Assembly: GCA_025832235.1 (NCBI GenBank)
Contig: GCA_025832235.1_3649.1
Direction: 5' to 3' (one strand)
Length of the DNA: 64,000 nucleotides
Origin: a phage
Of the stretch, positions 29,765 through 46,174 are shown piece after piece; positions within the stretch are counted from its first letter, which is position 1, and every line of letters begins with the position of its first letter. Made by a program: the position numbers and the translations under genes. The notes beneath the pieces are model-generated. The model was not told the DNA's origin. It saw only the letters and a list, made by a program, of their open reading frames with translations, and did no database searches.

Positions 29765-30136
29765 TCAATGACTATTTTCAATCAGCCACACAGGGTCGAG
29801 GTAAATTTGTTGGCGTGTTGCCCAATGACAAACTTCATTGTACATCTGAACCTCTTTGTCCGTCAGTTCACGAATAGGCTCATCTATACCCTCATTTTTG
29901 TGGTAATCCCAGTCGGCATCGATTTCCCACAGCCATGACTTGTTGTCACCACGCTTACGCACACAGAAGTCACCAGGACGGCCTGCCAGTGCATTTAAGA
30001 ACTCGTTCTCCGCTCGCTCCTGAAGAATACTAAGGAGCAAAACGTTGGAGCATGACCGTAAAATATGCTTCAGCTCACAATCATCAATCTCAACTTCAAT
30101 ACGTTGTTTGACTGTGTGGGTACCTTTTACTAACAT
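29765..30136 (-). CDS. hypothetical protein
   Basis: ORF track 29765..30163; ATG 30136 follows GAGGAGG. Confidence 0.55.
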   Translation of the reverse strand: MLVKGTHTVKQRIEVEIDDCELKHILRSCSNVLLLSILQERAENEFLNALAGRPGDFCVRKRGDNKSWLWEIDADWDYHKNEGIDEPIRELTDKEVQMYNEVCHWATRQQIYLDPVWLIENSH

Positions 30137-30146
30137 ACTACCTCCT

Positions 30147-30341
30147 CTAAACGAACTCTGCAAGAGTTGTGTTGTTCACTGCACCGCAGTAAATGGAGTA
30201 TCCCAGCCCATTAGAGTGCAGAAACCACGGCGTGCCGAAATTATCTTTCACGTAGACATCACCGTTGTTTGTAAAGGGCCAATATTCTTCCCCAAGGGTA
30301 AAATACCTATTCATACCTTCAGCAAGATACTTTACTTTCAT
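30147..30341 (-). CDS. hypothetical protein
   Basis: ORF track. Confidence 0.45.
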   Translation of the reverse strand: MKVKYLAEGMNRYFTLGEEYWPFTNNGDVYVKDNFGTPWFLHSNGLGYSIYCGAVNNTTLAEFV

Positions 30342-30565
30342 AGGTCCTCTTCAACAACTACAAACTTGGCAAGCAAAGTGGTTCCGTAGATATGATACTC
30401 ACCGTTTGCCAGGTGAGAGATATACCAGGCAACCCCTTCCTCGTCTTTAATCATTTTGTTTGCACGAGCTTTATCGTAATAAACCTCGTAGGTCTTTCCT
30501 TCTTTAAAGAATGACAGGTCTGTCATCTTTTCTTCTACAAAGGTAGCTTTAACCAAAGTCGTCAT
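30338..30565 (-). CDS. hypothetical protein
   Basis: ORF track. Confidence 0.5.
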   Translation of the reverse strand: MTTLVKATFVEEKMTDLSFFKEGKTYEVYYDKARANKMIKDEEGVAWYISHLANGEYHIYGTTLLAKFVVVEEDL

Positions 30566-30969
30566 TGATCAGTCTCCTTCTTGTTAAGTCTGAATACTGC
30601 AATAATAGCATTCCCAAGGTGCAGTGTCAAGTCATTTCCAAGATACCACAGCATTCCACGGTCATCTTTGATGAAAGGGTAGCAATTTGGTGCCTTCTCT
30701 TTAATGAAAGGGTGACAATCTGGTGCTTTCCAGACATTGTACACTTTCCCAACCTGAAAGAAATCAGGCCCTGTTGGGATTTTAGTGCCTGGCCACACTT
30801 GAGATACCTGAACACACTCCACCTGCATAATAACAGGGATAGTCATGGATGTAAATGTTTTTGTTGGTTCTACTACCATAAAAGTCTCCTCTTTGCTCAA
30901 CAACACTTCCATGTGTTGATAGTTTACATTAGTGACAATCACCCCAGTTACGACCACACAAGTATTCAC
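30562..30969 (-). CDS. hypothetical protein
   Basis: ORF track (GTG start overlapping end of polymerase exon 2); true start uncertain. Confidence 0.45.
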   Translation of the reverse strand: MNTCVVVTGVIVTNVNYQHMEVLLSKEETFMVVEPTKTFTSMTIPVIMQVECVQVSQVWPGTKIPTGPDFFQVGKVYNVWKAPDCHPFIKEKAPNCYPFIKDDRGMLWYLGNDLTLHLGNAIIAVFRLNKKETDQ

Positions 30970-31282
30970 CTGTGATCTGGAACGGGACTCCCATCATTTT
31001 AGAAGCTTGCCAGAAGCAATGCACCACCATTTCACCCACAGGGCTCCAGATAAGTTCAAGCTTTCCGTCATCGTTCAGGATAGGATCGTACACCGTGTTT
31101 CCGTCTCTGTCAACCACTTCGTTTCCGTTTTCATCCTTGCGTGCCTTTTTGTACTTATGACCGTCGAACACATGAAGTTTGGCTTCCTGCTCTGCCTTAA
31201 ATGCTTCCAGTTCTTCAATTGTGTCGAAGGTGTACACAGTCTTATACTTCGGTGTGTCAGGCACTTGAAGTTGGTACTCATC
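30929..31282 (-). CDS. DNA polymerase (family A, T7 gene 5-like), exon 2 (C-terminal, begins with the DE of motif C)
   Basis: Translation DEYQLQV...GEYLCGRNWGDCH; C-terminus parallels T7 DNA polymerase ...TEGKMGPNWAICH; no SD or start codon of its own. Confidence 0.7.
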   Translation of the reverse strand, partial: DEYQLQVPDTPKYKTVYTFDTIEELEAFKAEQEAKLHVFDGHKYKKARKDENGNEVVDRDGNTVYDPILNDDGKLELIWSPVGEMVVHCFWQASKMMGVPFQITGEYLCGRNWGDCH

Positions 31283-31558
31283 CAATAGTTCAGGTAGGTC
31301 GTTAAGCTACCCCGCACCATTACGTGCATAGCCATACGTTTTCACGTAGGATCGGACCATCTCATATTCCTATGATAAGCAACCACAGGAATCCTCCCAT
31401 TTCGACCGCACTTGCTGGTCTACTTCCTTTCGGAATGGCCTCTGAGCGTTCGCTCTTTTGAGCGCTTCGTTGCGGATTACCTTGCCATAAGGTTTAGGCT
31501 TCCCGCAGTTAAAGAGGTTATTCGACATAGATTACTCTATGAAGCCACAATGTTATTT
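31283..31558 (-). mobile_element. group I intron (276 nt, ORF-less) in the DNA polymerase gene
   Basis: Splits H|DE of motif C; 5' exon ends in U, intron ends in G; IGS GUGG pairs with exon CCAU; P-like AACUGCGGGAAG (31499-31510), Q-like AAUCCGCA (31471-31478), R-like GCUCAGAGGCCA (31436-31447), S-like GAGAUGGUCC in canonical order; stops in all frames. Confidence 0.7.
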
Positions 31559-34500
31559 ATGGTAATAAATAATACGACGAACACCTTCATCGTACCACCC
31601 ACGCTTCACCATCTGGCGGTGCATGAGTATTCCAACTAAGTCACACAGCGATGCACCACCATTTTGTTGGTATGCATTAAGTAAAGAGTGTTTAGATCTG
31701 GTCCAGATAGCATGACCATCAAAAGAGTAGATAAACTTCTTACCCGTTGCTTCCCAGAATTTCTCCAGATCTTCTTTACGCCCCTTAAGACCAGGGTTGG
31801 CATCCCAGAGTGCATCGATTACCCTTTGTCCCAACTCTGGAGAGATGTCCAGCATATCTGCAACTTTATCTTTTTGTGCCCCATACATAACCCCATACGT
31901 GATAGGTTTACCGTCGTTACGGGAAATCTCCTTGCCTGCTACAGAAGAGTAAGCTTTGGCGTTATTACAGTTACCGCACACTGCCACTTTACCATTCCTT
32001 CTCACAATGATTGCTCCAGAAGGGACGGTAACGCAATAAACCAAAGAACCGCTCACCTCGACAGACTCTTTAGATAGTGTCAGCAACCCTGCTCTCTGTT
32101 TGCTACCAATTGTGATTCTGTGCTGCACGGCACGACCTTTTTTGTGAATCGCCACCGTATTATTCCGTAAACCACACTGAGTAGCCAGCGCAGACACCAC
32201 CTCTACAGATTTCTTCCTGCACTCGGCCTGGGAGTAGTAAGCAACCTTTCCACCTTCGGAAGATACCCACCCGTCCCAGTTAGATAAAGAAGCTATAAAC
32301 AGGTTTTTAGATTCTTTATCAAGGTTCATCAGGTTATAGGTGAAATCCTTATTGTTGTCCAAAAACTCAAATACCCAGGACGGAACGTGGAATTGGAACC
32401 TTCTCGCCAGTAAGCCTCCTTTTGTGGTTTTCCCGCTCTGCTCTACATAACTAAGGCTTAGAGCAGAAAAAGTATCTAAAAGCGTTGCAACTTTTCTTCC
32501 CTTTCCGACCTGAATCCTGCACACGATGCTGCCGTCCTTATTTGTATGCAAGTGCCCATCATCGTGAATAGCAATAAGCAAATTAACCTGGGCAGGAGAT
32601 AAGGTTGTATTCCCATAAAACTCTGCCGCATGGATAAACCTTCTTCCTGAATTAGACCCTTTACCTGCTTTCAGGTCTTTTGCCAAATCTTCAAACAATT
32701 TATTGCTTCTGTGATCCACAGTCAGCATCCTGTGTTGATCTGTAACCATAAAATCCACACTACTGTTGTGGAAATGATACATATCCCCACAATAACTACG
32801 CTTAACGTAATTTAATGGAGTAACAAGGTTCATTGACGAGGTGTTGTGATCGTACTGGAACACTTGTGTTCCCGGATCAAGATCTTCAAACCTCACCCAC
32901 CCTTTCTCCGTGAGAATTTGTGTATCTCCTGAATAACAGTGTGCATCGCCGTTACTTACAACATCGTAATACAGGCCGTTGTCGAACTCAAAGGCACCCC
33001 AAGCCCCGATAAGCTGCTCTAAGTTGGACCCGTCAATACCGATCTCAAAGTATCCTGGAGGAACACCCCACAGACTACGCATCTCTTTACCCATAACCAC
33101 TTTAGGAGATGGTTTAGGCATGTTTGCACAAATACTGTGTTTCTGTCGGGAAGTGTTTGTTAATCCAGAACTTTTAGCAGGAAGCTTATGGTCAATCTTC
33201 AAACGTGGGTGATTAAGAAGACCAGTATCAACCTTATCCTCCTTGATTGGATCAAGGACCGATCTGCGGTTTCGCAATGATAACCACAAGACGATATCTT
33301 TAGCCATCTCTCCGTTCAATTTTTCAAGATTCGGGCATAGGTGTCCAAACGTATCTTTCAGTTGCGGAGAAGTAATAAGTGCCCTAGCTTTTCTACGTAT
33401 TTTCCCGAATACTTCCTTTTTAATCCTTTCGGAGTTAGGAAAGCTTCTGAACTTGTGCACGGTTGTCTGGAACTTAGCATCAGTTTTGTTCCAGAAGTTG
33501 ATAATTAGGTCACAATACTCTGACTCTAAAAGCTCGTCCATATATGCATACACTCGTGCATCAACATCTGCATCAGGTAGAGCTTTCTTCTTGCTGTCTT
33601 TAGTTACATCCTTAGTTCTCCACATTGTCGGAAGCCAACCAGCACTGATCAGGTATCGCTTAATATCGTCCTGATTGCTGATTTTCATAGGTATCTTGCA
33701 GTCAGGCATTCGCTTCTGCTGTAGATCACTTATTGCCTGATCCATTAGCTCTTTAGGTAAAGGTTGTGGTGTGGAGGTGCCCTTGATATAGCCCCTCAAG
33801 AAATCCGCCATCTTATCAGGGTCTTTACAGCCCATCTCTTCACACCATTTTATCCCCATCTTACTGACATCTCCTGTGGAGGTAAATGCTCGCTTAGGAG
33901 GAGCTTTGAATTCTAAAGCACTCATGTCCACAGGGTAGCCAAGCTTGTCTTTTAACCATTTCCAACCATTATTGGAGATTGTCCCATCCTGGTTAAACGG
34001 CTTTTCAGGGAACTTAGGCCGCTGAGACATTGATAACTCTTTTAAAGGAAGTTGTGGTTCAACACGATCAGCGATCTCTTTCATCCACGCATCGCAGCGG
34101 TCACGTAAAGCAATAGCCCCATCTATGTCGAAATACACACCCTGTCGAGCCTGCAGCTCCATCAGGAAATGTTGCAGCATGCCTCGGCGTAATGCATTCT
34201 TCCAGGTAATCTTCTTGAATCCTTTAGGCTTCTCTTTGGCAGGGTCATACATAAAGTTCTGCATGTCAGATTTGCCGTAGAATACACCTTTTGATTCCGC
34301 TACCAACTCTTTCCAGAGCAACTCCTGGATGATAACGTCCTCGAACACACGATCCACATATTTCCACAGCGGAAGATCGCGCCAGTCATCAATTTGAACT
34401 TTCTGGTTACCAAGGGCGTAGCCCCATGCCATAAGGCCGTGAGGACCAACAGGTTGCATTTTCTTAGTAACCGGGTTGAATACAGCGTCCGGACAACCTT

Positions 34501-34951
34501 TTGGTAAAGGGCGATCAGGCCACAAGATTCGGCTCATAGCCAACGTATCAAACAGGTTAACCTGGTGGTCGTTGATAGTCCCCATGCATTTAGGATCACG
34601 GAACATATCAAAATGAATACCGGATAATCTTTCCATTAGCATAAAGTCATAACTGTAGCAGTTATGGCAGTTCAAAGCTGTTGGTGACCAGTCAGAATTG
34701 CCTGTAAGCCAACCTTCCAACTCCGAAAAATCTGCTATGCGAACTTCAAAATCTTTATAAAGAGTTTTCTTTGCCAGAATGAAGTTCTTAGCCTTTTCTA
34801 TATCCTCCTCGGAGTAGTGTGTGCGGTCATTTAGAGGAAGGAACAGCATAAAACGGTTCTTATTCAGCTCTTTAAACAGACCGCAGTGATAATAAAGATC
34901 TGGGTCTTCCAGCAAACCGGATGACTCAAAATCGAAAGACCACATACTCAT
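31559..34951 (-). CDS. DNA polymerase (family A, T7 gene 5-like), exon 1, containing an in-frame intein
   Basis: N-terminal 3'-5' exonuclease motifs (FDFESSG, CHNCYSYD, GPHGLMAWGYALG); motif A IDGSNLEQL; motif B KPITYGVMYGAQK; ends ...RRIIYYH where HDE is expected. Confidence 0.85.
31970..32938 (-). mobile_element. intein (323 aa) with LAGLIDADG-type homing endonuclease domain
   Basis: Block A CYSGDTQILTEKGW, block B LTVDHR, LAGLIDADG-like LLIAIHDDGH and FIASLSNWDGW, C-terminal VYCVTV...VAVCGN followed by +1 Cys; flanking exteins NGDAH|CNNAKAY restore a T7-like NGDIHTKNQIA segment. Confidence 0.75.
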
Positions 34952-35009
34952 ATACAGTTCTCCTTAAAGGGGAGGCGGTTGTACTACCCCTCCCACTCTT
35001 TGTTAAACA

Positions 35010-37088
35010 TTAAAAAGGCGTTTCATCATCCTCAAAACCAGGGACCGGGTCAGAGGATGGATCATCGTACTGGAGGTCTTCCTGCGTGTCAACAGGCTTA
35101 ACAGTAGGAGTTACAACCTTATCAGCCACAACCTTGCCCATAGGTGTTTCTACAACTGCATGCTCCTGATCCTCAAACATAGCCTGAGGTCTCCAAACAA
35201 CCTCCCCACCTTCTCCGTCTGTAAACATTTGCATTTCTTTGTCCCAGTACCAATTACTGGCATCATGGAACTTACCTGTATGCGGATCCATAACTAAAGT
35301 GTCAGCAATACCTAAAGTTTTTGCTGGACGGTTTTTAAGACCTACCAGACGGACACGTCCACGAGAACGATCCACCATTTCTTCAGCCTCGACACCTATG
35401 ACTACCCAACTCAACTGTTCAAGCCCAGCCGATCCTCGCAAATTCTCTTTTCGCACAGGATACCAGAAAGGTAACGGGTTACCATCCTTGTCCTTAGGAG
35501 GCACAATCTCTGTACGTTTGAGGTGAGCGATCACCAAGATAAACACGTTAAACTGCTTACAAAACGCAGCCAGCTGAGTCATAGCCATGTCCAGTTCTTT
35601 TCGCTCATCCTTAACATTAAGCCCTGAAATTACCATGGACAGGTGATCCAGCACAATATAACGGCAATGGTACAGGCAAACCATTTGCTTAAGCTTGGTA
35701 ATCAACTCGTCCACCGGAATAGATCCGAAATGTTTGAACACTTTGATTTTTCCAGCTTTTGCCCATGATTGGTGAATCTCTGCGTGTTCTTGATCAGTTA
35801 AAAACTGGCTAGGATCTTCAACAAACTCTTTAACATCAAACCCTAACTGGTTTGCATACAAGGAGTTAATTGCTTCCTCTGGGTCCTCCTCAAGATGGAT
35901 CATACATAGACGATCATCCTCTTCATAGTCATCAGCCTTCGGGCATGTCGGGTCCATTAGGTATCTTGCAATACAATGTTCCAGTTTTTTAGCTACAGTT
36001 GTTTTACCGCCCCCTGATGGCCCTGTAAGCATTACGAGTGTCCCTTTGTGCAAGCCTTTTAGCATTTTTTGCAGTTTTGGGAACTCTGCGCTGATATCTA
36101 CCCCGTTGGAAGTCTTTTTCCGCAAAGACTCGATAGAGAAGTCTTCTAAATCCGACACAGCATCAGGCACATATTTAACAGGGTGCCGGAACATGTTGAC
36201 AATATCTTCCAGCTTTTTAGCCTTCAGCATGTCACGGATATCTTTTACCCCGTCAGGGTCATTTACTTCACCAGGGTATTCTACGTGGTAAACGTTATCA
36301 GCCATCAAAAATGCTGCGATATTGTGCGTGGCCTCAACACCTTTAATGACGTGTTTTTGCTTCTCTACCTCGTTAGCTGCATCGTTATCCATTGCCAGCA
36401 CAACTGTTCCATAGCTACGGATAAACTTCTCATTGTTTGCAAAAGTATCTACTGCGTTTGCACATCCACAGTTAATTCCAACAAAAGGCAGGCAGGGTTT
36501 TCCTGCCAGATCACCACCGTTGATAACTGCGTCGATCCCGTCCTGGACCTCTTTAGCCCACTGCTTCACCTTTGCCGGGGCTTTAGCGTTGGTGAGAATC
36601 CCTTTTACTTGTATCTGATATGCAGCCTGCCATGCTGCAATAACATCACCTTCCCCCTCACAAACGTTAATCTGCTTACGGTTGTTGGAAGATGCACACA
36701 GCTTTTGACCAAACATCTGGGAGTTGGCCTTTACGATGCCAACAACGGAGAAGTGGCCCCTTTGTTCTTTAGGAATAGTCCAGTCACGCTTTTTGAAACC
36801 GGACAGATTTCCGTAGCGGTCGTAATATGGGAAATATGTTGCAGTGACTGTCACACCGTCTTCTTGTGACAATGCTGATCGCACACCAAAATATTGTGCA
36901 GCCATCAGACCGATATTTTGTTGTGGGACAGGGACAATTTTAGTATTTTCTAAAACAGTCTCTACAGTTTCAACTTCTTTTTCATCACGATAGTCTCGTT
37001 TCACACTTCCCCCACTTTTATACTTAGTTGCTTTCGGGTTTGGCTCACCGAAACGGTTGTATGCAGATGCCATAAATTTACTTCCCAT
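35010..37088 (-). CDS. primase-helicase (toprim domain + DnaB-like helicase; T7 gp4-like)
   Basis: Toprim motifs CEGEGD and LAMDNDAANE; Walker A LTGPSGGGKTT; Walker B IVLDHL; AHLKR; acidic C-terminal tail ...FEDDETPF. Confidence 0.8.
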   Translation of the reverse strand: MGSKFMASAYNRFGEPNPKATKYKSGGSVKRDYRDEKEVETVETVLENTKIVPVPQQNIGLMAAQYFGVRSALSQEDGVTVTATYFPYYDRYGNLSGFKKRDWTIPKEQRGHFSVVGIVKANSQMFGQKLCASSNNRKQINVCEGEGDVIAAWQAAYQIQVKGILTNAKAPAKVKQWAKEVQDGIDAVINGGDLAGKPCLPFVGINCGCANAVDTFANNEKFIRSYGTVVLAMDNDAANEVEKQKHVIKGVEATHNIAAFLMADNVYHVEYPGEVNDPDGVKDIRDMLKAKKLEDIVNMFRHPVKYVPDAVSDLEDFSIESLRKKTSNGVDISAEFPKLQKMLKGLHKGTLVMLTGPSGGGKTTVAKKLEHCIARYLMDPTCPKADDYEEDDRLCMIHLEEDPEEAINSLYANQLGFDVKEFVEDPSQFLTDQEHAEIHQSWAKAGKIKVFKHFGSIPVDELITKLKQMVCLYHCRYIVLDHLSMVISGLNVKDERKELDMAMTQLAAFCKQFNVFILVIAHLKRTEIVPPKDKDGNPLPFWYPVRKENLRGSAGLEQLSWVVIGVEAEEMVDRSRGRVRLVGLKNRPAKTLGIADTLVMDPHTGKFHDASNWYWDKEMQMFTDGEGGEVVWRPQAMFEDQEHAVVETPMGKVVADKVVTPTVKPVDTQEDLQYDDPSSDPVPGFEDDETPF

Positions 37089-37872
37089 TAATTCTGCTCC
37101 TTACTACAGGCTCGTTTGCTAGGAATACGGCTTTTGCCCAGCCACGTGGTGTGAGGCTTCGAATCATCTTCGTTCTTGCACTCTTTCCACCCAGCTTGGC
37201 GTGTTGCATGGAATACCCGCTAACCGCGTCAACTATTTGCGGGACAGGTTTTGTGGCTGGGATTATAAATCCATTACCTATCCAGCCGCAAGTTATTTTT
37301 GGATAGGCATCACGTGGAGCTATAAATTCAGGAAACCATGGGTTTACATCATCTTCCGGTAAATACCCGCCATAATCCGAAGGGTGAAAACGGTAATCAG
37401 GTTTGCGCCACAGTGTGGACATAACACCCACAGGATTCTCTACATGCCACGGGCAATCGTAAATCTCTCCCAGCTCTTCCGCAACCCGAGCATCCTTTAC
37501 AGCATTAATTTGGATCATGGGGTCCTTAGCCAGCTTTTTCTTAAAATGTGCAGCACCTGATACCGCTAAATGCGTGCACGGAGGAAATGCAAGAATAAAA
37601 TCTGGAGCCGGATACATGCAAAAAGTTTCCTGAGGGAACCACGGGTCAATCCAATAGTCCACATAGTGAATGTTGGGATGATCGGTGATCACCTCTGCAT
37701 AACTGCCGTGATCAGCGCCTTCTGCATTAAAGCACAGGCACAGGTACCCAGCTTTTGCCCAGTCAATGGCTGCACCACCAGACCCGTCAAATAGACTCCA
37801 CACAACACCTTTGTGGTAGTGTTCTTTGTAGATAAATTTCAATTTGCTGTCTCCTAATGCAAAAAGCCCCAC
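37078..37872 (-). CDS. DNA (cytosine-5)-methyltransferase-like protein (tentative)
   Basis: Motif I-like LFDGSGGAA, motif IV-like FPPCTHLAVSGA (PCT instead of PCQ), motif VI-like HVENPVG, in canonical order; only 264 aa. Confidence 0.4.
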   Translation of the reverse strand: MGLFALGDSKLKFIYKEHYHKGVVWSLFDGSGGAAIDWAKAGYLCLCFNAEGADHGSYAEVITDHPNIHYVDYWIDPWFPQETFCMYPAPDFILAFPPCTHLAVSGAAHFKKKLAKDPMIQINAVKDARVAEELGEIYDCPWHVENPVGVMSTLWRKPDYRFHPSDYGGYLPEDDVNPWFPEFIAPRDAYPKITCGWIGNGFIIPATKPVPQIVDAVSGYSMQHAKLGGKSARTKMIRSLTPRGWAKAVFLANEPVVRSRINGK

Positions 37873-37893
37873 CCTTTCGGGCAGGGCCTAGTG

Positions 37894-38376
37894 TTAAACC
37901 CGGATACCTATTGTATACTCGGTGGATACCAATGTCAAATCTAAATTTAAAATTTCTTGCATCTCATAATATGCGTCCAGGGTTAGATACATTTCCCCAT
38001 CCTTTTCTGCATACTTGTCCAAGTGCTTAAGGCATTTCGGATAACTATCGAGTGCAGCTTTCAGACACTCAAATTCTGTGCTGTTAATGAATCCTTCCAT
38101 CTTAGCTACCCGTTCTGGAGTAACGATAGCACTGTAGTGAGATTTAGCTTCCTGAATGCAATGGGTCCAAGCATCAACTTTCTCTTCGAAAAGCCCGAAG
38201 AACTTCTTTTTGGTGAGCTTCAGATTCTTTAAGTGCTTAAGCACTCGGTTGCCGATCACAGCCACATCACGAAACTTAAGGATCACTTTGTCGATATCCT
38301 CGCGGCCTATTTTCACAAAGCAAGCCTCGCACATTTCAGGAGTGGCATAGCCTACTTTCCACATAAAATCTGACAT
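37894..38376 (-). CDS. hypothetical protein
   Basis: ORF track. Confidence 0.55.
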   Translation of the reverse strand: MSDFMWKVGYATPEMCEACFVKIGREDIDKVILKFRDVAVIGNRVLKHLKNLKLTKKKFFGLFEEKVDAWTHCIQEAKSHYSAIVTPERVAKMEGFINSTEFECLKAALDSYPKCLKHLDKYAEKDGEMYLTLDAYYEMQEILNLDLTLVSTEYTIGIRV

Positions 38377-38388
38377 AACACCCTCTCC

Positions 38389-38784
38389 TTATTCCTGAAA
38401 AGCAACGATATCATATGAACTTGCAGATGATCCTGGTGAAGAATGACTCCAGTCTAGGTCATCAGAGTAGTCAGCGTACTGTGCACCACTACGTAGTTTG
38501 TATTTTACCCACTTACCTGGTGCAGGGTTTTCACCACCTTCCCATACTTCCCAGCCTTCTGGCAGGCCGTCCTGAGAGTAGTCATCCACCTCACTAATGA
38601 TCTTAGGGTTTGGCACCAAGATCCCCGCAGGCTCTTCCTTCCGGATAAGTGTCCACACAGCGTAGGTGTCGGAGCAGGCGCACGATAGCAAAGTATATCC
38701 ACTGTTCAGAACTTCTGCAATCTCTTTTTCAGCATCTTCCAATTTAGTTAAGTGGTATTGGAGAATCTTCACACCTGTAATCAT
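38389..38784 (-). CDS. hypothetical protein
   Basis: ORF track. Confidence 0.55.
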   Translation of the reverse strand: MITGVKILQYHLTKLEDAEKEIAEVLNSGYTLLSCACSDTYAVWTLIRKEEPAGILVPNPKIISEVDDYSQDGLPEGWEVWEGGENPAPGKWVKYKLRSGAQYADYSDDLDWSHSSPGSSASSYDIVAFQE

Positions 38785-39086
38785 CAGAAACCTCCCACTT
38801 CTTCGGCAAATGCAGCTGCTGTCGTCGCTGCATCCAGATAGGACTCTAGTTCACGGGCTGCACGTTTGTAAATTGAGTGGCGCATATCGTTTGGCAGTTG
38901 GTGGAAGTCCACCTCTTCACCGTTGTGGTAAACATGCACATCGGTAATTTGTCTAAATCCGTAATAGTCAACATCAGAATCACGGCACTCCGGGTCTGGC
39001 AACTGGACAACTGCCTGAGCTTCCACAGTAAACATATCGTCAAGTTCGAAATCGATTTCAAAAGTGTATGGTTTATAACGTTTCAT
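38784..39086 (-). CDS. hypothetical protein
   Basis: ORF track; overlapping start/stop with neighbour. Confidence 0.55.
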   Translation of the reverse strand: MKRYKPYTFEIDFELDDMFTVEAQAVVQLPDPECRDSDVDYYGFRQITDVHVYHNGEEVDFHQLPNDMRHSIYKRAARELESYLDAATTAAAFAEEVGGF

Positions 39087-39146
39087 CGTTTAGTGCTTCC
39101 TTAGTTTTTGTGGGGAGGAGTGCCTCCCCTTTAGACCCACATCTTA

Positions 39147-39488
39147 CTACTCAAGGTCTTCAGAGTCAAGCTCAAAAAGAATCAAACTGTGCATACCTGC
39201 AGAGAGATCAACACACCCTGCAACAATAAGGGTCTGATAGTAAGGTTCAGTACCCTCGATGTCTTCGTTAAAATCCACAACAAGGTAGTCACCTTTGTTA
39301 AAGGTGTATTTGTCCGATGTAAATGCAAAACCTGCCCAGTCCCCTACTGCAGGATCTTTATCAGTCACCTTTGTTAGCAGTAGATCTTTTTCACGAGATC
39401 TTTTAGTAAAATCGTGAATCACAACATCCTTCTCTTCAGGAGTTGGATTTCCACACACGTAGTTAACTATATTTCTCCACAAACTCAT
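39147..39488 (-). CDS. hypothetical protein
   Basis: ORF track. Confidence 0.55.
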   Translation of the reverse strand: MSLWRNIVNYVCGNPTPEEKDVVIHDFTKRSREKDLLLTKVTDKDPAVGDWAGFAFTSDKYTFNKGDYLVVDFNEDIEGTEPYYQTLIVAGCVDLSAGMHSLILFELDSEDLE

Positions 39489-40855
39489 ACGTCCCCCTCT
39501 TCGGCTCTGGTTTCAAAATCTTTCCTGACAATTTTGTCTAAGTCAGGGAATGTTGTATTGTAAAACTCTACGACTCGCGGGTCAACAATAATGTCAACTT
39601 CTCTTAGTGGACGCAACAAGTTTATTCCTTGTATCGTCTTAACTCTACTCAAAGCGACATACGTCATCCCAGGAGAGAAAGCTCCGTTCTTTCCAAGGTC
39701 CAGGTTGTAACAATCTAGCGTAAGTCCTTGACTTTTATGAGATGTTACGGCGTACCCAGATTTCAGAGGGAGTTGCTTGTATGATCCAATCACTACCCTC
39801 TCTATAAACTTCTCCATCTTCCTTTCTGCAATGTTGTATCTTTGAGATGGCTTATACTCGTTATTCTCCCACAACCTTTGTTCTATGTCAACCTGTGTTC
39901 CATCTTCAAGCTCCACCACCACCGCCTTGTTCTTAAATTTAACAATTGTGGCACGTGTTCCGTTAACATAATAAGGTACTTTGTGCGTCGGGTCAACATC
40001 GTTGGCGGTTATCATAACTTTCATGCCAATTTTCAACTTCATCTCCTGCTCAACTGGCAAGGTGGAGGGAAACTTACCCTTCATTTCACCAGTGTATACC
40101 TTCTCTGGGGCGTTGATGGCATCATAGAACCTTCTGTTCACTTCCTCTGCTTGTTTGTTGGTGGCGCAAATTGTGAGAGCGTCTGTTGGTACACCTCCTT
40201 TGTAACAGCGAGCATTAAGTTCTGCTACAACCTCTTTTATACGACGACCCTCACGAACACAGTTGAGCATTGTAGCAAATCGAATAGACTCCTGTCGGAA
40301 CTGATCTATTAGGGCTATGTTGTGGAGGTCAAGCTCTTTCCAAGATTCGGTATAGCAACACAAGTCCGTATGGTAGAAATTGAAGTAGGCTTCCTTCTCC
40401 ATAGAAGAGACAACAGGAGGTGCCTGGTAAAAATCGCCAAACAATATGACCTGTATGCCTCCGAAAGGTTTGTCATTTTTTCGAAGGAAGCGGAGTTTCC
40501 TATCCATCTCTATAAACTTATCAGCACGGATCATAGAGATTTCATCGATAATTAGGATGGTAAATGCCTTGCTCTTCAAAGGCTTTGCTGTTTTTGCCCT
40601 TATTGCGGTCCAGTCTGACTCCATGCTCACACCTGCTGCAAGATCGAAGGTTCGGTGTGCTGTTGCTCCATTAACGTTTAAAGCGGCTACCCCTGTCGGG
40701 GCAACCGTTATGCAAGAGTCTCCATACATTGACTGGATCATGTTGATGAGGTACGTCTTCCCACAACCTGCGGGTCCTGAAACGAAGACATTCTCACCGC
40801 TCATGATTGCAACGAGGGCAGCATCTGTGCCTACATCATACTGCCCTTTTTCCAT
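39485..40855 (-). CDS. dda: SF1B DNA helicase (Dda/RecD/Pif1-like)
   Basis: Walker A GPAGCGKTY; Walker B ILIIDEISMI; AVTSHKSQGLTLD; YVALSRV. Confidence 0.8.
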   Translation of the reverse strand: MEKGQYDVGTDAALVAIMSGENVFVSGPAGCGKTYLINMIQSMYGDSCITVAPTGVAALNVNGATAHRTFDLAAGVSMESDWTAIRAKTAKPLKSKAFTILIIDEISMIRADKFIEMDRKLRFLRKNDKPFGGIQVILFGDFYQAPPVVSSMEKEAYFNFYHTDLCCYTESWKELDLHNIALIDQFRQESIRFATMLNCVREGRRIKEVVAELNARCYKGGVPTDALTICATNKQAEEVNRRFYDAINAPEKVYTGEMKGKFPSTLPVEQEMKLKIGMKVMITANDVDPTHKVPYYVNGTRATIVKFKNKAVVVELEDGTQVDIEQRLWENNEYKPSQRYNIAERKMEKFIERVVIGSYKQLPLKSGYAVTSHKSQGLTLDCYNLDLGKNGAFSPGMTYVALSRVKTIQGINLLRPLREVDIIVDPRVVEFYNTTFPDLDKIVRKDFETRAEEGDV

Positions 40856-42060
40856 TACGCCTCCTCGTAAAGAATGTCGATAGTGTTACCATCACGGTCA
40901 ACCACGTATTCAATCGGATCGCCATCTTTGCGTGATTCCGGTGCTGCTACGATTTCGTAGCGGCATGCACGGCACTTAGCACTGTTGTGTTGGTATGGCA
41001 CACTAACCACATCCGCAGGGTCAACCATAACCATCATTACGGTGCCATAGCCCGCTGCATACTCTTTGCTGGCGCAGTGCAGGCCATAAGAACACGCAGC
41101 TTCCGGATCATCTTCTACAAAGTTACGAGGCATGGATACAAAAGCACCCTGGTATTGTGGAACTTTACCGCTGTGCCAATCCACCCACTTGCTTCCGTTA
41201 AACTGAACCCCCTTATAGCAAATGATTCGACCATCTTCTGCAACCTGGATGTCATTAGCCTGCATGAAATCGTAGAGCATGTTCACAGATTTTGCAGACG
41301 GGTTGCGTAGCAGACGGACAAGGAATTTAACATATCGGTCGTCCAGTGTTCCATCTATATAATCTTCCTCAATTTTCTTTGCAATGGTAGATTGCATCTC
41401 TACACCGTAGTAATAGAGCTTACCATCTTTCATAATCAGGTTGTCTGCAAGTGTAGTGAACTCATTCTTGCGTTCCAACCAGACAAGGATTTCACCAATT
41501 GCCTCGTCATATTCCTGAACAGAGATATGGTCGAAGACTTTCTGGTAAACTTCCTCACTTTCGCTGCGGCGAATTTCAAAAATGCCTTCGTTGCAGGTGA
41601 TCTGGAGGAGTTCCCCACAAATAACCACCAAAGGCTCGATGTTTCGAGTCTGTTGCTGAGACACACTGCTCACCACCTCCAGCACCGGATCTTTGACTTC
41701 TACTAAAGGTTCTTCTGACTTGATTGCCACCCCAGTGAACCCCACACCGTGAACAACACACAGTGGGTATACCACGCCCCAACGTTTAACGGAACCTTCG
41801 CCTAAATCTAAGATCATAGCGTACTTACCGTTATCTTCCAGACCGTATCGAAATAAACGGGCCTCTTCGCGGGTTTCAAAATCCTCACGGGTGTAGCAGA
41901 CGCTGTCACGGTCAGGATTGAACAACTCTGGGGCACCAACTGCCAGTGTCCAGGTTGTGTCGCCTTTCTCAATGGCACATGTGAAACCCTTCTTCTCAAG
42001 TTCTGCACGGCGGTCTCGTGCTTCTTTACGGGTTTTGAAATGTTCGTAGATGAAAATCAT
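40855..42060 (-). CDS. rIIB: rIIB-like protein
   Basis: Immediately downstream of rIIA-like gene (T4 order); SAKSVNMLYDFMQANDIQVAEDG and MPRNFVEDDPEAACSYGLHCASKEY...VDPADVVSVP...NSAKCRACRYEIV parallel T4 rIIB as recalled from memory. Confidence 0.6.
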   Translation of the reverse strand: MIFIYEHFKTRKEARDRRAELEKKGFTCAIEKGDTTWTLAVGAPELFNPDRDSVCYTREDFETREEARLFRYGLEDNGKYAMILDLGEGSVKRWGVVYPLCVVHGVGFTGVAIKSEEPLVEVKDPVLEVVSSVSQQQTRNIEPLVVICGELLQITCNEGIFEIRRSESEEVYQKVFDHISVQEYDEAIGEILVWLERKNEFTTLADNLIMKDGKLYYYGVEMQSTIAKKIEEDYIDGTLDDRYVKFLVRLLRNPSAKSVNMLYDFMQANDIQVAEDGRIICYKGVQFNGSKWVDWHSGKVPQYQGAFVSMPRNFVEDDPEAACSYGLHCASKEYAAGYGTVMMVMVDPADVVSVPYQHNSAKCRACRYEIVAAPESRKDGDPIEYVVDRDGNTIDILYEEA

Positions 42061-42070
42061 CTTGGTCTCC

Positions 42071-44053
42071 TTATTTGATGTTATTCTTTGTATCGATCAG
42101 CTCACGGTATTCAATCATAGCAGGGGTGTCCCAATATTTCAAGCCCACATGCTTCAAAAGTGGATATTTCTTTTCCAATCTTGCAATATAGGCCTTCCCG
42201 CACTTAACCCGGTTGGTGATTAAGATTTTGGCACGATGATTTAGCTCACTGTGCTTCCACGCGGTGTTACCTTCCCACTTGTGGAAATGTGGCCGATAAT
42301 TTCCAAAATCCTGCATGGGGATAATTTTCCCTAATTGTCTATACAAGCTGTCATATGAAGTTTCATTTGCTGCGCGAGTCAGTAAGAATTTCCAAGCATC
42401 CTCTTTCAACAAATGTTCCACATTCTTCTCTGTAACATACTGGCAATCAGGATCAGTCCAAAGCAGACGAGATTCTGATACCAAGTACAGATCTTCACCT
42501 TCAGGAATCTGGAGTGCAGCACGCACACGGTCATAATTTTGCTGGTAGATGTTACTCAGCTGTCCCAGCCAACAACTTCCACGTTGGATATCACCCTCAT
42601 AAGGAATGCAGTGCTTAATCTTCTTGAACTCTGCCTTAGTAATACGTTCACGACGGAAGTAACCATCCTTCTCAAGCTTTTTAACCCAATAACCTGGCTC
42701 GTAATGAGTTTTTGTTTCACCTTTCTTCGCAGGTCGGCGAGGGAGCTCTGATAACAATTTGACAGTATCTGCAAAGAACGGATGGTGTGCCGCCTCTTTA
42801 AACTCTTTCACCAGATCCGTGTTCCGGCAATAGAAAACGTTGCGTCCGGTGATTTCGCTTAAGTAGTTACACTTATTTCGGTTATATTTGCCGTCTCCGT
42901 CGTTAAATACAAGGTATACACCTCGTAAGAACTCCGACTTTCCGTAACAAGCGTAACCTATGCGGCCTTTATTTAAGCCGCCAGCGAAGATCTCACAGTC
43001 CCCCAAATTTCCTAGGCCTGTCTCTTCCCATCGTTCCCACATAAAATTCTTACCGAAGATGTGCCCGAACACTCCACTGTTCTTCATCATCTCGCGTGCT
43101 TCTGAGGATGTTTTTGCTGTCTCCAATTCCGCAACAACTTCTGCCCCACGTAAACGGATACCCTCTTTGACAAAAGCCTCCAGGCGATCCTGGAATCCAC
43201 CGTCGTCATGGCCCTCTATGGTCCATTCGCGCCCAGGGTTAATATTGCAATCCCCAATAGGAATCTCTACACAGATTGCAGGGTAGTCTGTCAATGTTTC
43301 CAGGAATTTAGATCGGTAAGGTTGGTGACCCATTACCACGCGACTCTCGTCAGAGCTGGTATAACCTTTCAGGATAGTCATTTTCCAACCATCTTTCTCG
43401 TAGCGATACTGAGCCTCAACCTTGTCACCTTCCAGCATCTTACTGGTCATAGGGTCGGTAACGGTAAACGGAAACTTTGCATAGCGTAGGCATGACGCAA
43501 TAGCAGTGCGATATTTCAGAACATGCTCTTTCTTAACATGGAACTGAACTTTTACCCCGTTGTGCTCTTCAGTCTTCCGCTCGCGGATCTTGGTAACGTT
43601 TGGGATACCCTGATCCAAGAACAATAGATATGTGCTTTCAACACCGTTGTGCACACTAATCACATCGAAAGTGTCCACCATGCTGAACGGGGCCTTTGAA
43701 CCTACACCTTTATTACCTACCAGAGCGTTGCTGTTGCGCTTGGTTGACTCCCCGAGGTTCATGAAAGTGTTGCGGACCATCTCTTCTGACATACCCAATC
43801 CAACGTCCTGCACAAAGAAGTATGGTTCAAGGTCTGTAGGAGAGTGAATGATGATCGGTACATCACCCCGTCCAGACTCAACATGGGAGTCCACAGCATT
43901 GAAGATTGGTTCACGGCAGCTTGCCAGCACCTTATCTTCGTAAATCCCTTTAATGATTAGCCCAAAAGTCTCTTTGTTCAGAGAAATTGAGCCCCTGGTG
44001 ACCTCCATATTTCCGGTCAGCACTGCTTTAGTTTCATTACTGTTTACAATCAT
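42071..44053 (-). CDS. rIIA: rIIA-like protein (N-terminal GHKL/HATPase domain)
   Basis: Bergerat-fold motifs: N-box IFNAVDS, G1 VQDVGLGMS, G2 VGNKGVGSKAPFS; 660 aa; upstream of rIIB-like gene. Confidence 0.7.
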   Translation of the reverse strand: MIVNSNETKAVLTGNMEVTRGSISLNKETFGLIIKGIYEDKVLASCREPIFNAVDSHVESGRGDVPIIIHSPTDLEPYFFVQDVGLGMSEEMVRNTFMNLGESTKRNSNALVGNKGVGSKAPFSMVDTFDVISVHNGVESTYLLFLDQGIPNVTKIRERKTEEHNGVKVQFHVKKEHVLKYRTAIASCLRYAKFPFTVTDPMTSKMLEGDKVEAQYRYEKDGWKMTILKGYTSSDESRVVMGHQPYRSKFLETLTDYPAICVEIPIGDCNINPGREWTIEGHDDGGFQDRLEAFVKEGIRLRGAEVVAELETAKTSSEAREMMKNSGVFGHIFGKNFMWERWEETGLGNLGDCEIFAGGLNKGRIGYACYGKSEFLRGVYLVFNDGDGKYNRNKCNYLSEITGRNVFYCRNTDLVKEFKEAAHHPFFADTVKLLSELPRRPAKKGETKTHYEPGYWVKKLEKDGYFRRERITKAEFKKIKHCIPYEGDIQRGSCWLGQLSNIYQQNYDRVRAALQIPEGEDLYLVSESRLLWTDPDCQYVTEKNVEHLLKEDAWKFLLTRAANETSYDSLYRQLGKIIPMQDFGNYRPHFHKWEGNTAWKHSELNHRAKILITNRVKCGKAYIARLEKKYPLLKHVGLKYWDTPAMIEYRELIDTKNNIK

Positions 44054-44550
44054 TTATTGCGCTCCTTGTAGTAGATATGGCTCCCGAATTGAGCTGTCCT
44101 CTGCATCTTTTTTGCCCATTTCGGTCGTACTTTGGTTGTATGGTAGTGTGTTGCTCCACCTGTTATGTCCATAGCCATGTATGCAACATGGTTGTTATTA
44201 TAGACCTTTAGAAGCATCTTTGCAAGACTTTTAGCGTGATCCCATGAATCTTTTTCTGTCACCTTAAAAGTTTTGCCGTGGTTTGTCCACGAAAACTGGT
44301 TAGGTTGGTAGACAATCTTTCTTATAGTGTCTGGGTATTTGGGGTGAGATTTCCTGTTTAGTGTGGCAAACCCTGATGCCAGCATACCCATCGTGCCATC
44401 CCCTCTAGCCTCCCTGTAGATATTGCATGCCAGAATGTTTTCCTTAGTATCTGAGGGCTTGCAAGTATGATATACTTTTTGTTTTGGTGCTGCAACAACA
44501 GGCAGCGATAAAAATGCGCTCAAAATAATAGCAAAGATCTTAATTTTCAC
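44050..44550 (-). CDS. secreted cell-wall hydrolase (SleB/Hydrolase_2-like); candidate endolysin
   Basis: N-terminal signal peptide MKIKIFAIILSAFLSLPVVAAP; motifs NIYREARGDG and YQPNQFSW; start overlaps rIIA stop. Confidence 0.6.
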   Translation of the reverse strand: MKIKIFAIILSAFLSLPVVAAPKQKVYHTCKPSDTKENILACNIYREARGDGTMGMLASGFATLNRKSHPKYPDTIRKIVYQPNQFSWTNHGKTFKVTEKDSWDHAKSLAKMLLKVYNNNHVAYMAMDITGGATHYHTTKVRPKWAKKMQRTAQFGSHIYYKERNK

Positions 44551-44599
44551 AATAACTCCAAATAGAAAATCCCCGCCGAAGCGGGGGAGGTCTTAGAAA

Positions 44600-44980
44600 T
44601 TAATCGTAGTGTGCCAAAATCTCTCCATCGTTGCAAGTTCCCTCTACAAAGTTATGAAGATTCATGCACTCATCTTGATAGAAGAATTTACCGCTTTTCA
44701 GCCGTAAGCCAAACAACTCCGCATCTCCACGATGGCAAGCCTCTACAAGTTCATAGATTTCATACGGCAACTCTCCGTCGTCATGGAAGAACCCAGCCTT
44801 ATCGTTGACATAGATGAAGAAATAATCACTGCTATCGCAAGCGTCCAATATTTTAAACCAGATTTCATCTACATCTTTTTCTCGGATATCAATCACGCAA
44901 GTGGAGCTGCATTCGTACTCCTTCTCCGGCTCCTCGGTCAATACCACCCGGTAATTTCCCCGCTTACCTACTTTAGCCAT
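44600..44980 (-). CDS. hypothetical protein
   Basis: ORF track. Confidence 0.55.
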   Translation of the reverse strand: MAKVGKRGNYRVVLTEEPEKEYECSSTCVIDIREKDVDEIWFKILDACDSSDYFFIYVNDKAGFFHDDGELPYEIYELVEACHRGDAELFGLRLKSGKFFYQDECMNLHNFVEGTCNDGEILAHYD

Positions 44981-44989
44981 ACAACCCCC

Positions 44990-46174
44990 TTAAGCTTTAG
45001 CTAAAATGGCGCTAAACTCTTCACCAAACTCTTTTACAATCTTCATCAGGTTTGGGTACGCTTTGATCAGTTGAGCAACGATCTTGTCACGCCCTTTACC
45101 GATAAGCAAGGCATTTCCTAAGGCGTTAGGTTTCATCATCGCCATAAAGACTGAGAATACAAAATCTCGGTTCTCGTCCTTGAAATTTTCCCAAAGGAAA
45201 TCGAGGAAGTTTGCCACACAGCTAACAAGATCTTCGTCAGAGATACTTGCATTTTCCATCATATTACGAATAGCGATACAACCTTCAGATCCAAGAATCC
45301 ACAAGATGTCTGGCTGCTTAGGCCCTACGTATTCTTTGCAACCCCCTGCCATAATCCGACCGATTTCCGGTAAATTGCGTTTCTTGGTGTGGTAGGTCCA
45401 GATCTCTACCGCTGCAGTGTGACCAATAGCACCTTGCAGAAGAACACGGGCCATAGCGTCAGAAATAATACCGCTGTCAAAATCGTGCAGGATATCAGAT
45501 GCAGCAACCCAAGATCGCGGTGTGGCAAAAGATGGGCAATTAATTTCAGCCATAGCCTCATAATTATCAATAGCTGATGGAACTCTTTTCAGATACCCAA
45601 TTACAGAGGAGTGAACCCCGTTGAGGAATGCGTAGTCCTCAATAAACACCTCTGCATTGCTTGTAACCTCTACAATGATAAAACGGTTAGCCAGAGGGGC
45701 TTCGAGCGCCGAAAGAACCGCACCATCTGTAGAACGGTTACCCGCAGCCACAAAAACAGAACCCTTAGGGAATGCATAGGTGCCGCACTTGTGGTCAAGC
45801 ATAATTTGCATTGCAACCTTTTGCAGGTAGTTATCTGCATGAGTGAGCTCATCCAGAAAGATAATTCCGCTCCAGTCAGGATCCGCAGGCCAAAATTCTG
45901 GAATTGCAAACACTGTACGTGTAGTTCCATCCGCTTCTACAGGGATAGGTAGCCCAGATAAGTCGGCAGGATCTTTATCTGACAGTCGCACGTCAACAAG
46001 GTTGTCATCTCGCTCACCGAACATATTATCAGCGATCTGCTTCATCACCTGGCTTTTACCCACACCCATTGGTCCCAAAATTAGGACAGATCGGCTATGA
46101 CGTTGGGCAAACTGAATAATAGCTGGCAACTCACGGACAGTGATTTGACCACTTTCGAATACGTTTCTTGACAT
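44990..46174 (-). CDS. AAA+ ATPase (MoxR/AAA_5-like)
   Basis: Walker A LILGPMGVGKSQ; Walker B IIFLDELTHA; 394 aa. Confidence 0.6.
   Translation of the reverse strand: MSRNVFESGQITVRELPAIIQFAQRHSRSVLILGPMGVGKSQVMKQIADNMFGERDDNLVDVRLSDKDPADLSGLPIPVEADGTTRTVFAIPEFWPADPDWSGIIFLDELTHADNYLQKVAMQIMLDHKCGTYAFPKGSVFVAAGNRSTDGAVLSALEAPLANRFIIVEVTSNAEVFIEDYAFLNGVHSSVIGYLKRVPSAIDNYEAMAEINCPSFATPRSWVAASDILHDFDSGIISDAMARVLLQGAIGHTAAVEIWTYHTKKRNLPEIGRIMAGGCKEYVGPKQPDILWILGSEGCIAIRNMMENASISDEDLVSCVANFLDFLWENFKDENRDFVFSVFMAMMKPNALGNALLIGKGRDKIVAQLIKAYPNLMKIVKEFGEEFSAILAKA

What the first reader, a model, noticed from the sequence alone, without database searches (positions are those of the whole stretch)
37078..37872. 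Short C5-methyltransferase-like protein with PCT in place of PCQ
Motif I-like FDGSGG, motif IV-like PPCT and motif VI-like ENPVG occur in canonical order, but the protein is only 264 aa and lacks an obvious target-recognition domain. Its start overlaps the end of the primase-helicase gene. It could be a DNA or nucleotide-modifying enzyme involved in evading restriction.
Basis: partly seen in the sequence, partly recalled or inferred. Interest (0 to 1): 0.5.

Follow-up and report, generated by a model that had tools for sequence, protein, structure and literature searches.

The report
Phage short Dcm-like cytosine methyltransferase
This gene encodes an already annotated, very widespread family of unusually small phage DNA cytosine-C5 methyltransferases, one member of which has been shown experimentally to make 5-methylcytosine, so the finding is real but ordinary.

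Summary
The ORF exists on the minus strand at 37078-37872, and FDGSGG, PPCT and ENPVG occur in that order. The true start is probably the TTG at 37842, giving 254 aa. The window is a Vequintavirus (rV5-like) E. coli phage.

The protein is 253/254 identical to the gene annotated "Dcm-like C5 cytosine methyltransferase" in BASEL phage Bas51. It hits PHROG 757 "DNA methyltransferase" at E = 3e-87 and has relatives in 1504 phage records.

It is 53% identical to the KarlJaspers/K42 phage Dcm. That enzyme's C82/E128 align with C99/E145 here. It deposits 5mC on retron Ec86 msDNA and triggers that defence (Wang et al., bioRxiv 2023; Cell Rep 2024).

So this is a known orphan DNA C5-methyltransferase with a minimal target-recognition region, sitting in the replication module. 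Its recognition sequence is still unproven, and the loop in the TRD position differs from K42's. Any anti-restriction benefit is also unproven.

Interest is low.

The parts
37078..37842 (-). Most likely CDS of the Dcm-like C5-cytosine DNA methyltransferase (254 aa, TTG start). The maximal ORF runs to the GTG at 37872 (264 aa).
   Evidence: ORF. RBS and TTG. 253/254 identity to Bas51 bas51_0074. Annotated 765-nt CDS in MaxTheCat. PHROG 757 at E = 3e-87.
37851..37855 (-). Shine-Dalgarno AGGAG, 8 nt upstream of the TTG start
   Evidence: Read directly from the sequence.
37774..37791 (-). Motif I-like FDGSGG (aa 28-33 in 264-aa numbering), the SAM-binding loop after strand beta-1
   Evidence: It aligns with M.HaeIII FSGAGG.
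37573..37584 (-). Motif IV PPCT (aa 97-100) with the catalytic Cys99, equivalent to C82 of K42 Dcm
   Evidence: C in 105/113 sequences, T in 97/113. It aligns with M.HaeIII PPCQ and E. coli Dcm FPCQ.
37426..37440 (-). Motif VI ENPVG (aa 145-149) with Glu145, equivalent to E128 of K42 Dcm
   Evidence: E in 110/113, N in 103/113, P in 111/113.
37195..37257 (-). The only hypervariable loop (aa 206-226), located where the TRD of canonical enzymes lies. Here it is of the G-Y-S-x-Q-H type with a clade-specific 4-aa insertion (QIVD).
   Evidence: two loop types. pLDDT dips to 68-80 in this stretch.
37114..37161 (-). Conserved C-terminal block RSLTPRGWAKAVFLAN (aa 238-253), a merged motif IX/X-like helix that ends the protein
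   Evidence: R238 in 104/113, P242 in 103/113, G244 in 104/113, A248 in 100/113. Helices 232-239 and 243-263.
37078..37088 (-). 11-nt overlap between the methyltransferase stop codon and the primase-helicase ATG, suggesting translational coupling
35010..37088 (-). Downstream DnaB-like primase/helicase gene
   Evidence: Pfam DnaB_C and AAA_25. PHROG 239.
37864..37889 (-). 11-bp GC-rich hairpin followed by a U-run (terminator-like) between the upstream gene and the methyltransferase RBS. It contains the GTG of the maximal ORF.
   Evidence: (-22.8 kcal/mol, z = -2.6).

Best explanation
The gene encodes an active, SAM-dependent, orphan DNA cytosine-C5 methyltransferase of the compact phage 'Dcm-like' family (PHROG 757).

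Mechanism, inferred from the family chemistry: the target cytosine is flipped out. Cys99 of PPCT attacks C6, and Glu145 of ENP protonates or holds N3/N4. The methyl group of SAM, bound by the FDGSGG loop, is transferred to C5.

The protein is essentially a bare catalytic domain. Only a short, mostly conserved Lys/Arg-rich segment plus one variable loop (aa ~200-237) stands in for a target-recognition domain.

The gene is expressed within the replication module and is probably translationally coupled to the primase-helicase. It would therefore methylate replicating phage DNA, and any other DNA in the cell. The usual pay-off would be protection from methylation-sensitive restriction enzymes. The cost is that retrons of the Eco1/Ec86 type sense such methylation.

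The target motif is probably CCWGG-like by analogy with phage K42 Dcm, but this step is inferred, not shown.
For: Shown here:
- The protein is 253/254 identical to the annotated 'Dcm-like C5 cytosine methyltransferase' of Bas51.
- It hits PHROG 757 'DNA methyltransferase' at E = 3.3e-87.
- 6 of 30 close homologues hit PF00145 at E <= 0.01. Three of the 8 tabulated individually score above the gathering score.
- The profile aligns motifs I and IV with M.HaeIII.
- The AF2 model has pLDDT 86.2 and pTM 0.87.
- C99, E145, N146 and P147 are conserved in 91-98% of 113 sequences, i.e. the query plus 112 family representatives.
- The protein is 53% identical (E = 7e-86) to KarlJaspers bas06_0055. C82, E128 and K175 there align with C99, E145 and K192 here.

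From the literature:
- The K42 orthologue of bas06_0055 (a 711-bp gene) is lost in all four Ec86 escaper phages.
- Its expression is toxic only when Ec86 is present.
- LC-MS shows raised 5mC on msDNA with the wild-type enzyme. The C82A/E128A/K175A/K176A mutant does not give this (bioRxiv 10.1101/2023.08.16.553469). The work was published as Wang et al., Cell Rep 43:114857, cited.

Context: the gene sits between a PIF1/Dda-like helicase and a DnaB-like primase-helicase plus DNA polymerase. The same order is seen in MaxTheCat and WalterGehring.
Against: - The protein itself has no Pfam or NCBIfam hit. hhalign against E. coli Dcm gives only 24 columns at negligible probability.
- Activity has not been measured for any Vequintavirus member.
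- The variable loop in the TRD position is of a different type from K42's and carries a 4-aa insertion. K193 is Ile here, where K42 has K176.
- CCWGG specificity was assumed by analogy with host Dcm even for K42. It was supported only by loss of defence when the msDNA CCTGG was mutated. That experiment used a dcm+ strain (MG1655; strain status from my own knowledge), and control msDNA there carried little 5mC. This sits uneasily with a plain CCWGG specificity.
- The BASEL study saw no simple relation between methyltransferase genes and restriction resistance in Drexlerviridae.
- CCWGG is not clearly avoided or enriched in the window: 135 sites against about 158 expected under a Markov model.
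Confidence: 0.8

Rival explanations
1. It is a true DNA C5-methyltransferase, but its specificity is not CCWGG. With so small a recognition element it may methylate a very short motif, as DNMT3 does with CG and CmoX with GC. Alternatively it may prefer hairpin or single-stranded DNA. The Vequintavirus clade may also differ in target from K42 Dcm.
For: - About 194 of 264 residues are accounted for by the catalytic fold.
- The best structural relatives are DNMT3A/B, the C5-MTases with the smallest TRD.
- The only variable loop comes in two types, and the window's type differs from K42's.
- K42's CCWGG assignment is by analogy.
- In dcm+ MG1655, control msDNA carried little 5mC (strain status from my own knowledge).
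Against: - Mutating CCTGG in the msDNA stem to AATGG, ACTGG or CATGG abolished Ec86 defence against K42.
- The recognition-region blocks outside the loop are highly conserved between the window protein and K42 Dcm.
Confidence: 0.3
2. It uses the C5-MTase fold to transfer a group other than methyl, for example carboxymethyl from Cx-SAM as CmoX does, as a first step towards hypermodified cytosine.
For: - CmoX carries an S-P-P-C motif, and this family has F-P-P-C.
- E. coli makes Cx-SAM through its own CmoA.
Against: - LC-MS found 5mC for the K42 homologue.
- Identity to 8yf3 is only 17%, and ordinary methyltransferases score about the same.
- No CmoA or amide-ligase hit was found among the nine neighbouring proteins scanned.
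- Ser of SPPC is Phe here. The position of the diagnostic Arg (R350 in CmoX) could not be mapped without a structural superposition.
Confidence: 0.04
3. It methylates RNA (a DNMT2-like tRNA m5C enzyme), or it is a catalytically dead regulatory or decoy protein (DNMT3L-like).
For: - The protein has no canonical TRD.
Against: - DNA methyltransferases score higher than DNMT2.
- The catalytic Cys/Glu and the SAM loop are under strong conservation, which argues against a dead protein.
- The K42 homologue methylates DNA and needs those residues.
Confidence: 0.04

Closest known systems
Phage K42 / KarlJaspers (Bas06) Dcm, the trigger of retron Ec86/Eco1 (Wang et al., bioRxiv 10.1101/2023.08.16.553469; Cell Rep 2024)
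   Same: Same family. It is 53% identical over the whole length (E = 7e-86). It has the same short architecture (236 vs 254 aa) and the same PPCT, ENP and RSLTPRG blocks. The catalytic residues C82 and E128 align with C99 and E145.
   Different: - The host phage family differs (Drexlerviridae siphovirus vs Vequintavirus myovirus).
- The loop in the TRD position is of the NPGW type in K42 and the GYSxQH type with a 4-aa insertion here.
- K176 is Ile here.
- The gene neighbours differ.
- No experiment exists on the Vequintavirus protein.
Canonical bacterial C5-MTases, Pfam PF00145 (M.HhaI, M.HaeIII)
   Different: - The protein is about 70 aa shorter.
- There is no separate TRD/small domain of about 80-100 aa.
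- It has PCT and ENP rather than PCQ and ENV.
- Motif VIII QxRxR and motif X GNAV are not recognisable.
- The protein is below Pfam detection.
DNMT3A/DNMT3B catalytic domain
   Different: Identity is only 12-15%. The DNMT3 enzymes are eukaryotic, work as oligomers and are CpG-specific. The resemblance is probably convergent reduction or very distant common ancestry, not family membership.
E. coli Dcm (EcoKDcm, CCWGG)
   Same: It shares the name used in annotations, the presumed chemistry and possibly the target.
   Different: E. coli Dcm is 472 aa and is paired with Vsr. The profile comparison finds only 24 aligned columns around motif IV. The window protein is not an orthologue.
CmoX, phage DNA cytosine C5-carboxymethyltransferase (PDB 8yf3; PMC12783734)
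   Different: CmoX is 333 aa and is linked to cmoA and ligase genes. It is defined by SPPC plus R350. None of these was found here.

Membership tests
PHROG 757 / phage 'Dcm-like' short C5-MTase family | Full-length sequence match to the family profile | tested here: met
   E = 3.3e-87, aa 10-261 against profile positions 3-226 of 247. 53% identity to KarlJaspers bas06_0055. 99.6% identity to bas51_0074.
PHROG 757 / phage 'Dcm-like' short C5-MTase family | Family signature blocks: (F/Y)D-x-(S/T)-G, FPPCT, ENP, W-R-K-P-D, D-x-Y-x-K-x-T-x-x-W, R-S-x-T-P-R-G | tested here: met
   All are present in the window protein. Conservation was counted in 113 sequences, i.e. the query plus 112 representatives, and in 30 close relatives.
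PHROG 757 / phage 'Dcm-like' short C5-MTase family | 5mC formation on DNA | not testable with these tools
   Shown by LC-MS only for the K42 homologue.
C-5 cytosine-specific DNA methylase (Pfam PF00145) | Score above Pfam's gathering threshold (22 bits) | tested here: not met
   The window protein has no hit even at E <= 10. Homologues P0054, P0067 and P0068, which are 54-56% identical, score 24.7-28.5 bits, but only over profile positions 4-94.
C-5 cytosine-specific DNA methylase (Pfam PF00145) | Class I methyltransferase fold with C5-MTase topology | tested here: met
C-5 cytosine-specific DNA methylase (Pfam PF00145) | Motif I FxGxG, motif IV Pro-Cys nucleophile and motif VI ENV glutamate, in that order | tested here: met
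   FDGSGG, PPCT and ENPVG. Motifs I and IV align with M.HaeIII. Q to T and V to P are family-wide substitutions.
C-5 cytosine-specific DNA methylase (Pfam PF00145) | Motif VIII QxRxR, a distinct TRD between motifs VIII and IX, and motif X GNAV | tested here: inconclusive
   No QxRxR or GNAV string is present. Candidate equivalents are W-R156-K-P, K192 and RSLTPRGWAKAV. Only about 35-40 residues remain outside the aligned core and termini. Model coordinates could not be superposed residue by residue.
E. coli Dcm orthologues (CCWGG, with Vsr) | Sequence orthology to EcoKDcm and CCWGG specificity | tested here: not met
   hhalign probability is 0.39% with 24 columns aligned. No vsr neighbour is present. 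Specificity is not testable here.
CmoX carboxymethyltransferases | SPPC motif, conserved Arg (R350) for the carboxylate, and genomic linkage to cmoA or an amide ligase | tested here: not met
   The motif is FPPC, not SPPC. No such hit was found among the nine neighbouring proteins scanned. The Arg position could not be mapped.

The most novel reading that the evidence does not exclude
This family is a naturally minimised DNA C5-methyltransferase whose recognition sequence has never been measured directly. The Vequintavirus branch carries its own version of the only variable loop. It may therefore methylate something other than CCWGG, such as a 2-4-bp motif or hairpin/replication-fork DNA. That would make it a broad-spectrum anti-restriction device and a compact scaffold for studying how a C5-MTase reads DNA almost without a TRD.
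Probability: 0.25. Interest if true: 0.45.

Novelty: already known. Interest (0 to 1): 0.15.

Why it matters
It matters little as a discovery. The gene is annotated in published genomes and its family has a characterised member. It is useful in three ways:

- It shows that curated libraries (Pfam, NCBIfam) miss a methyltransferase family present in about 1500 sequenced phages.
- It marks this phage as a likely activator of methylation-sensing retrons of the Eco1/Ec86 type.
- The real target sequence, and how recognition works with almost no TRD, remain open. Both could be settled cheaply.

Tried and rejected
- Pfam and NCBIfam on the protein itself: no hit. PADLOC: no hit.
- phmmer and profile search against PDB sequences: only sub-threshold matches to M.HaeIII (E = 0.5-0.7), although the motif alignment was correct.
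- hhalign of the family profile against single-sequence E. coli Dcm: uninformative.
- The GTG start at 37872: rejected in favour of the TTG at 37842.
- 'Truncated or pseudogene C5-MTase': rejected because relatives are overwhelmingly short (median about 232 aa over the 270 relatives retrieved).
- Composition test for CCWGG avoidance: 135 sites observed against about 158 expected under a Markov model, too weak to tell.
- Literature search for Vequintavirus plus CCWGG: nothing found.
- The published Cell Reports version of the K42 work is not held in the library. Only the preprint was read.
- Search for a second DNA methyltransferase in the window: no homologue of the Bas51 N6-adenine methyltransferase and no DPPY-type motif in ORFs of 150 aa or more.

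Full report
**Observation**

The window holds a minus-strand ORF at 37078..37872, 264 aa from a GTG. Its translation contains FDGSGG (aa 28-33), PPCT (97-100) and ENPVG (145-149) in the canonical order of C5-methyltransferase motifs I, IV and VI. The description is therefore correct, with two refinements.

The first concerns the start codon. The GTG lies inside the 3' arm of an 11-bp GC hairpin followed by a U-run (37889-37864). An AGGAG at 37855-37851 sits 8 nt upstream of a TTG at 37842. That start gives the 254-aa protein annotated in phages MaxTheCat and WalterGehring. It coincides with the N-terminus of the 79%-identical homologue P0002.

The second concerns the overlap. The gene lies upstream of the primase-helicase (35010-37088, minus strand). 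Its stop codon overlaps the helicase ATG by 11 nt, and an AAGGAG precedes that ATG. This suggests translational coupling.

**Where the window comes from**

Window 30000-45000 is 92-97% identical to E. coli Vequintavirus (rV5-like) genomes. The protein is 253/254 identical to bas51_0074 of BASEL phage WalterGehring, which is annotated "Dcm-like C5 cytosine methyltransferase". The same gene order occurs there and in MaxTheCat: PIF1/Dda-like helicase, four small unknown genes, the methyltransferase, the DnaB-like primase-helicase, then the DNA polymerase.

**How widespread the family is**

tblastn finds the protein in 1504 phage records, and 1455 of them cover at least 80% of the query. They include Vequintavirus, Drexlerviridae, Klebsiella Webervirus-like phages, and Salmonella, Vibrio and Shewanella phages. 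The large protein collections give 3551 clusters at 90% identity and 1033 at 50% identity. Nearly all members are 210-260 aa, so the small size is a family property and not a truncation.

**What it is**

Curated general libraries miss it: Pfam and NCBIfam return nothing. PHROG 757, "DNA methyltransferase", matches at E = 3.3e-87. The link to classical C5-MTases rests on four results.

- Six of 30 close homologues hit PF00145 at E <= 0.01. Of the 8 tabulated individually, three score above the gathering score, but only over profile positions 4-94, i.e. motifs I-IV.
- The family profile aligns FDGSG...PPCT with FSGAGG...PPCQ of M.HaeIII, although below significance.
- Across 113 sequences (the query plus 112 representatives of the wider family), C99 is Cys in 105, E145 is Glu in 110, N146 is Asn in 103 and P147 is Pro in 111. 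T100 is Thr in 97. PCT and ENP are thus family signatures, not oddities of this gene.

**Architecture**

The segment between the ENP strand and the final helices is mostly highly conserved: W-R-K-P-D, D188, Y190, K192, W197, and K-L-G-G-K-S-x-R-T-K-x-I-R-S-L-T-P-R-G. Only one loop (aa 206-226) is variable. It comes in two types. The window protein has the G-Y-S-x-Q-H type with a 4-aa insertion confined to the Vequintavirus clade. The other type is N-P-G-W. The protein ends with a motif IX/X-like helix, RSLTPRGWAKAVFLAN.

**Experimental anchor**

The window protein is 53% identical (E = 7e-86) to bas06_0055 of phage KarlJaspers, a 711-bp gene. Wang et al. studied the orthologue in KarlJaspers strain K42, also a 711-bp gene (bioRxiv 10.1101/2023.08.16.553469; published as Cell Rep 43:114857, cited). 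They reported the following:

- All four escapers of retron Ec86 had lost or disrupted the gene.
- Its expression was toxic only in the presence of Ec86.
- LC-MS showed raised 5-methylcytosine on msDNA with the wild-type enzyme but not with the C82A/E128A/K175A/K176A mutant.
- Changing the CCTGG in the msDNA stem abolished defence.

In my pairwise alignment, C82, E128 and K175 fall exactly on C99, E145 and K192 of the window protein (264-aa numbering). K176 corresponds to I193. The family is thus experimentally a DNA C5-methyltransferase.

**Most likely function here**

The protein is most likely an orphan SAM-dependent DNA C5-methyltransferase made together with the replication proteins. It would methylate replicating phage DNA.

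- Shown: family membership, fold, conservation of catalytic residues, and gene context.
- Inferred: activity of this particular protein, its target sequence, and its benefit to the phage.

The anti-restriction role is the conventional expectation. However, the BASEL study found no simple relation between methyltransferase genes and restriction resistance in Drexlerviridae. A documented consequence of such enzymes is activation of methylation-sensing retrons.

**What remains open**

CCWGG specificity was taken over from host Dcm by analogy even for K42. The experiment was done in MG1655, which to my knowledge is dcm+. Control msDNA there carried little 5mC. That is not what a plain CCWGG substrate would predict.

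The window protein also differs from K42 Dcm precisely in the variable loop. CCWGG occurs 135 times in the window against about 158 expected under a Markov model, which is not informative. I give about 0.25-0.3 to a different or shorter target.

**Verdict**

The gene is already annotated in published genomes and belongs to a family with a characterised member. Novelty: already known. Interest: low (0.15). The cheapest decisive step is to call 5mC on the existing native nanopore reads of Bas51, whose protein differs from this one by a single residue.

Noticed in passing
window 31553-34951 (-): The DNA polymerase ORF is 1132 aa. It carries an in-frame insertion of about 335 aa (aa ~664-1000; it begins CYSGDTQILTEKGW and ends ...VAVCGN|C) that looks like an intein. 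Pfam Hint_2 gives a weak hit (E = 9e-4). That stretch also matches PHROG families annotated PhoH-like, ribonucleotide reductase and thymidylate synthase, consistent with a shared intein insertion. In MaxTheCat and WalterGehring the polymerase is instead annotated as a two-piece join. WalterGehring has homing endonuclease genes inside and next to it.
   Followed up: partly
window 39087-39146: Bas51/WalterGehring carries a 1.3-kb N6-adenine methyltransferase gene here, between the homologues of 38784-39086 and 39147-39488. That gene is the trigger of retrons Asa1 and Squ1 (PMC12548924). This window has only a 60-nt spacer with a GC hairpin at this site. No homologue of that methyltransferase occurs anywhere in the 64 kb.
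   Followed up: yes
window 37910-37938 (-) and 37864-37889 (-): A near-consensus sigma-70-type promoter (TTGACA-17-TACAAT, 11 of 12 matches) lies inside the end of the upstream gene. About 20 nt downstream is a strong terminator-like hairpin, just ahead of the methyltransferase RBS. Placing a promoter directly before a terminator is odd. It may be a chance match, or it may reflect read-through or attenuation control of the replication genes.
   Followed up: no
related proteins (BFVD A0A6J5SE15_1); loci: A 1397-aa 'Helicase/UvrB' protein from an uncultured phage contains a domain of this methyltransferase fold (28% identity). In several of the phage records a helicase gene is annotated under the tblastn match along with the methyltransferase (skrot, PNS1, B2, Pr121LW). 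This suggests a recurrent link between this methyltransferase and helicases.
   Followed up: no
window 37894-39488 (-): Four small genes lie between the Dda/PIF1-like helicase and the methyltransferase (160, 131, 100 and 113 aa). They match only PHROG families of unknown function and have no Pfam domain.
   Followed up: partly
whole window: CTAG (50 observed vs 123 expected) and GTAC (125 vs 196) are the most depleted of the 21 short, mostly palindromic restriction-type sites tested under a Markov model.
   Followed up: no
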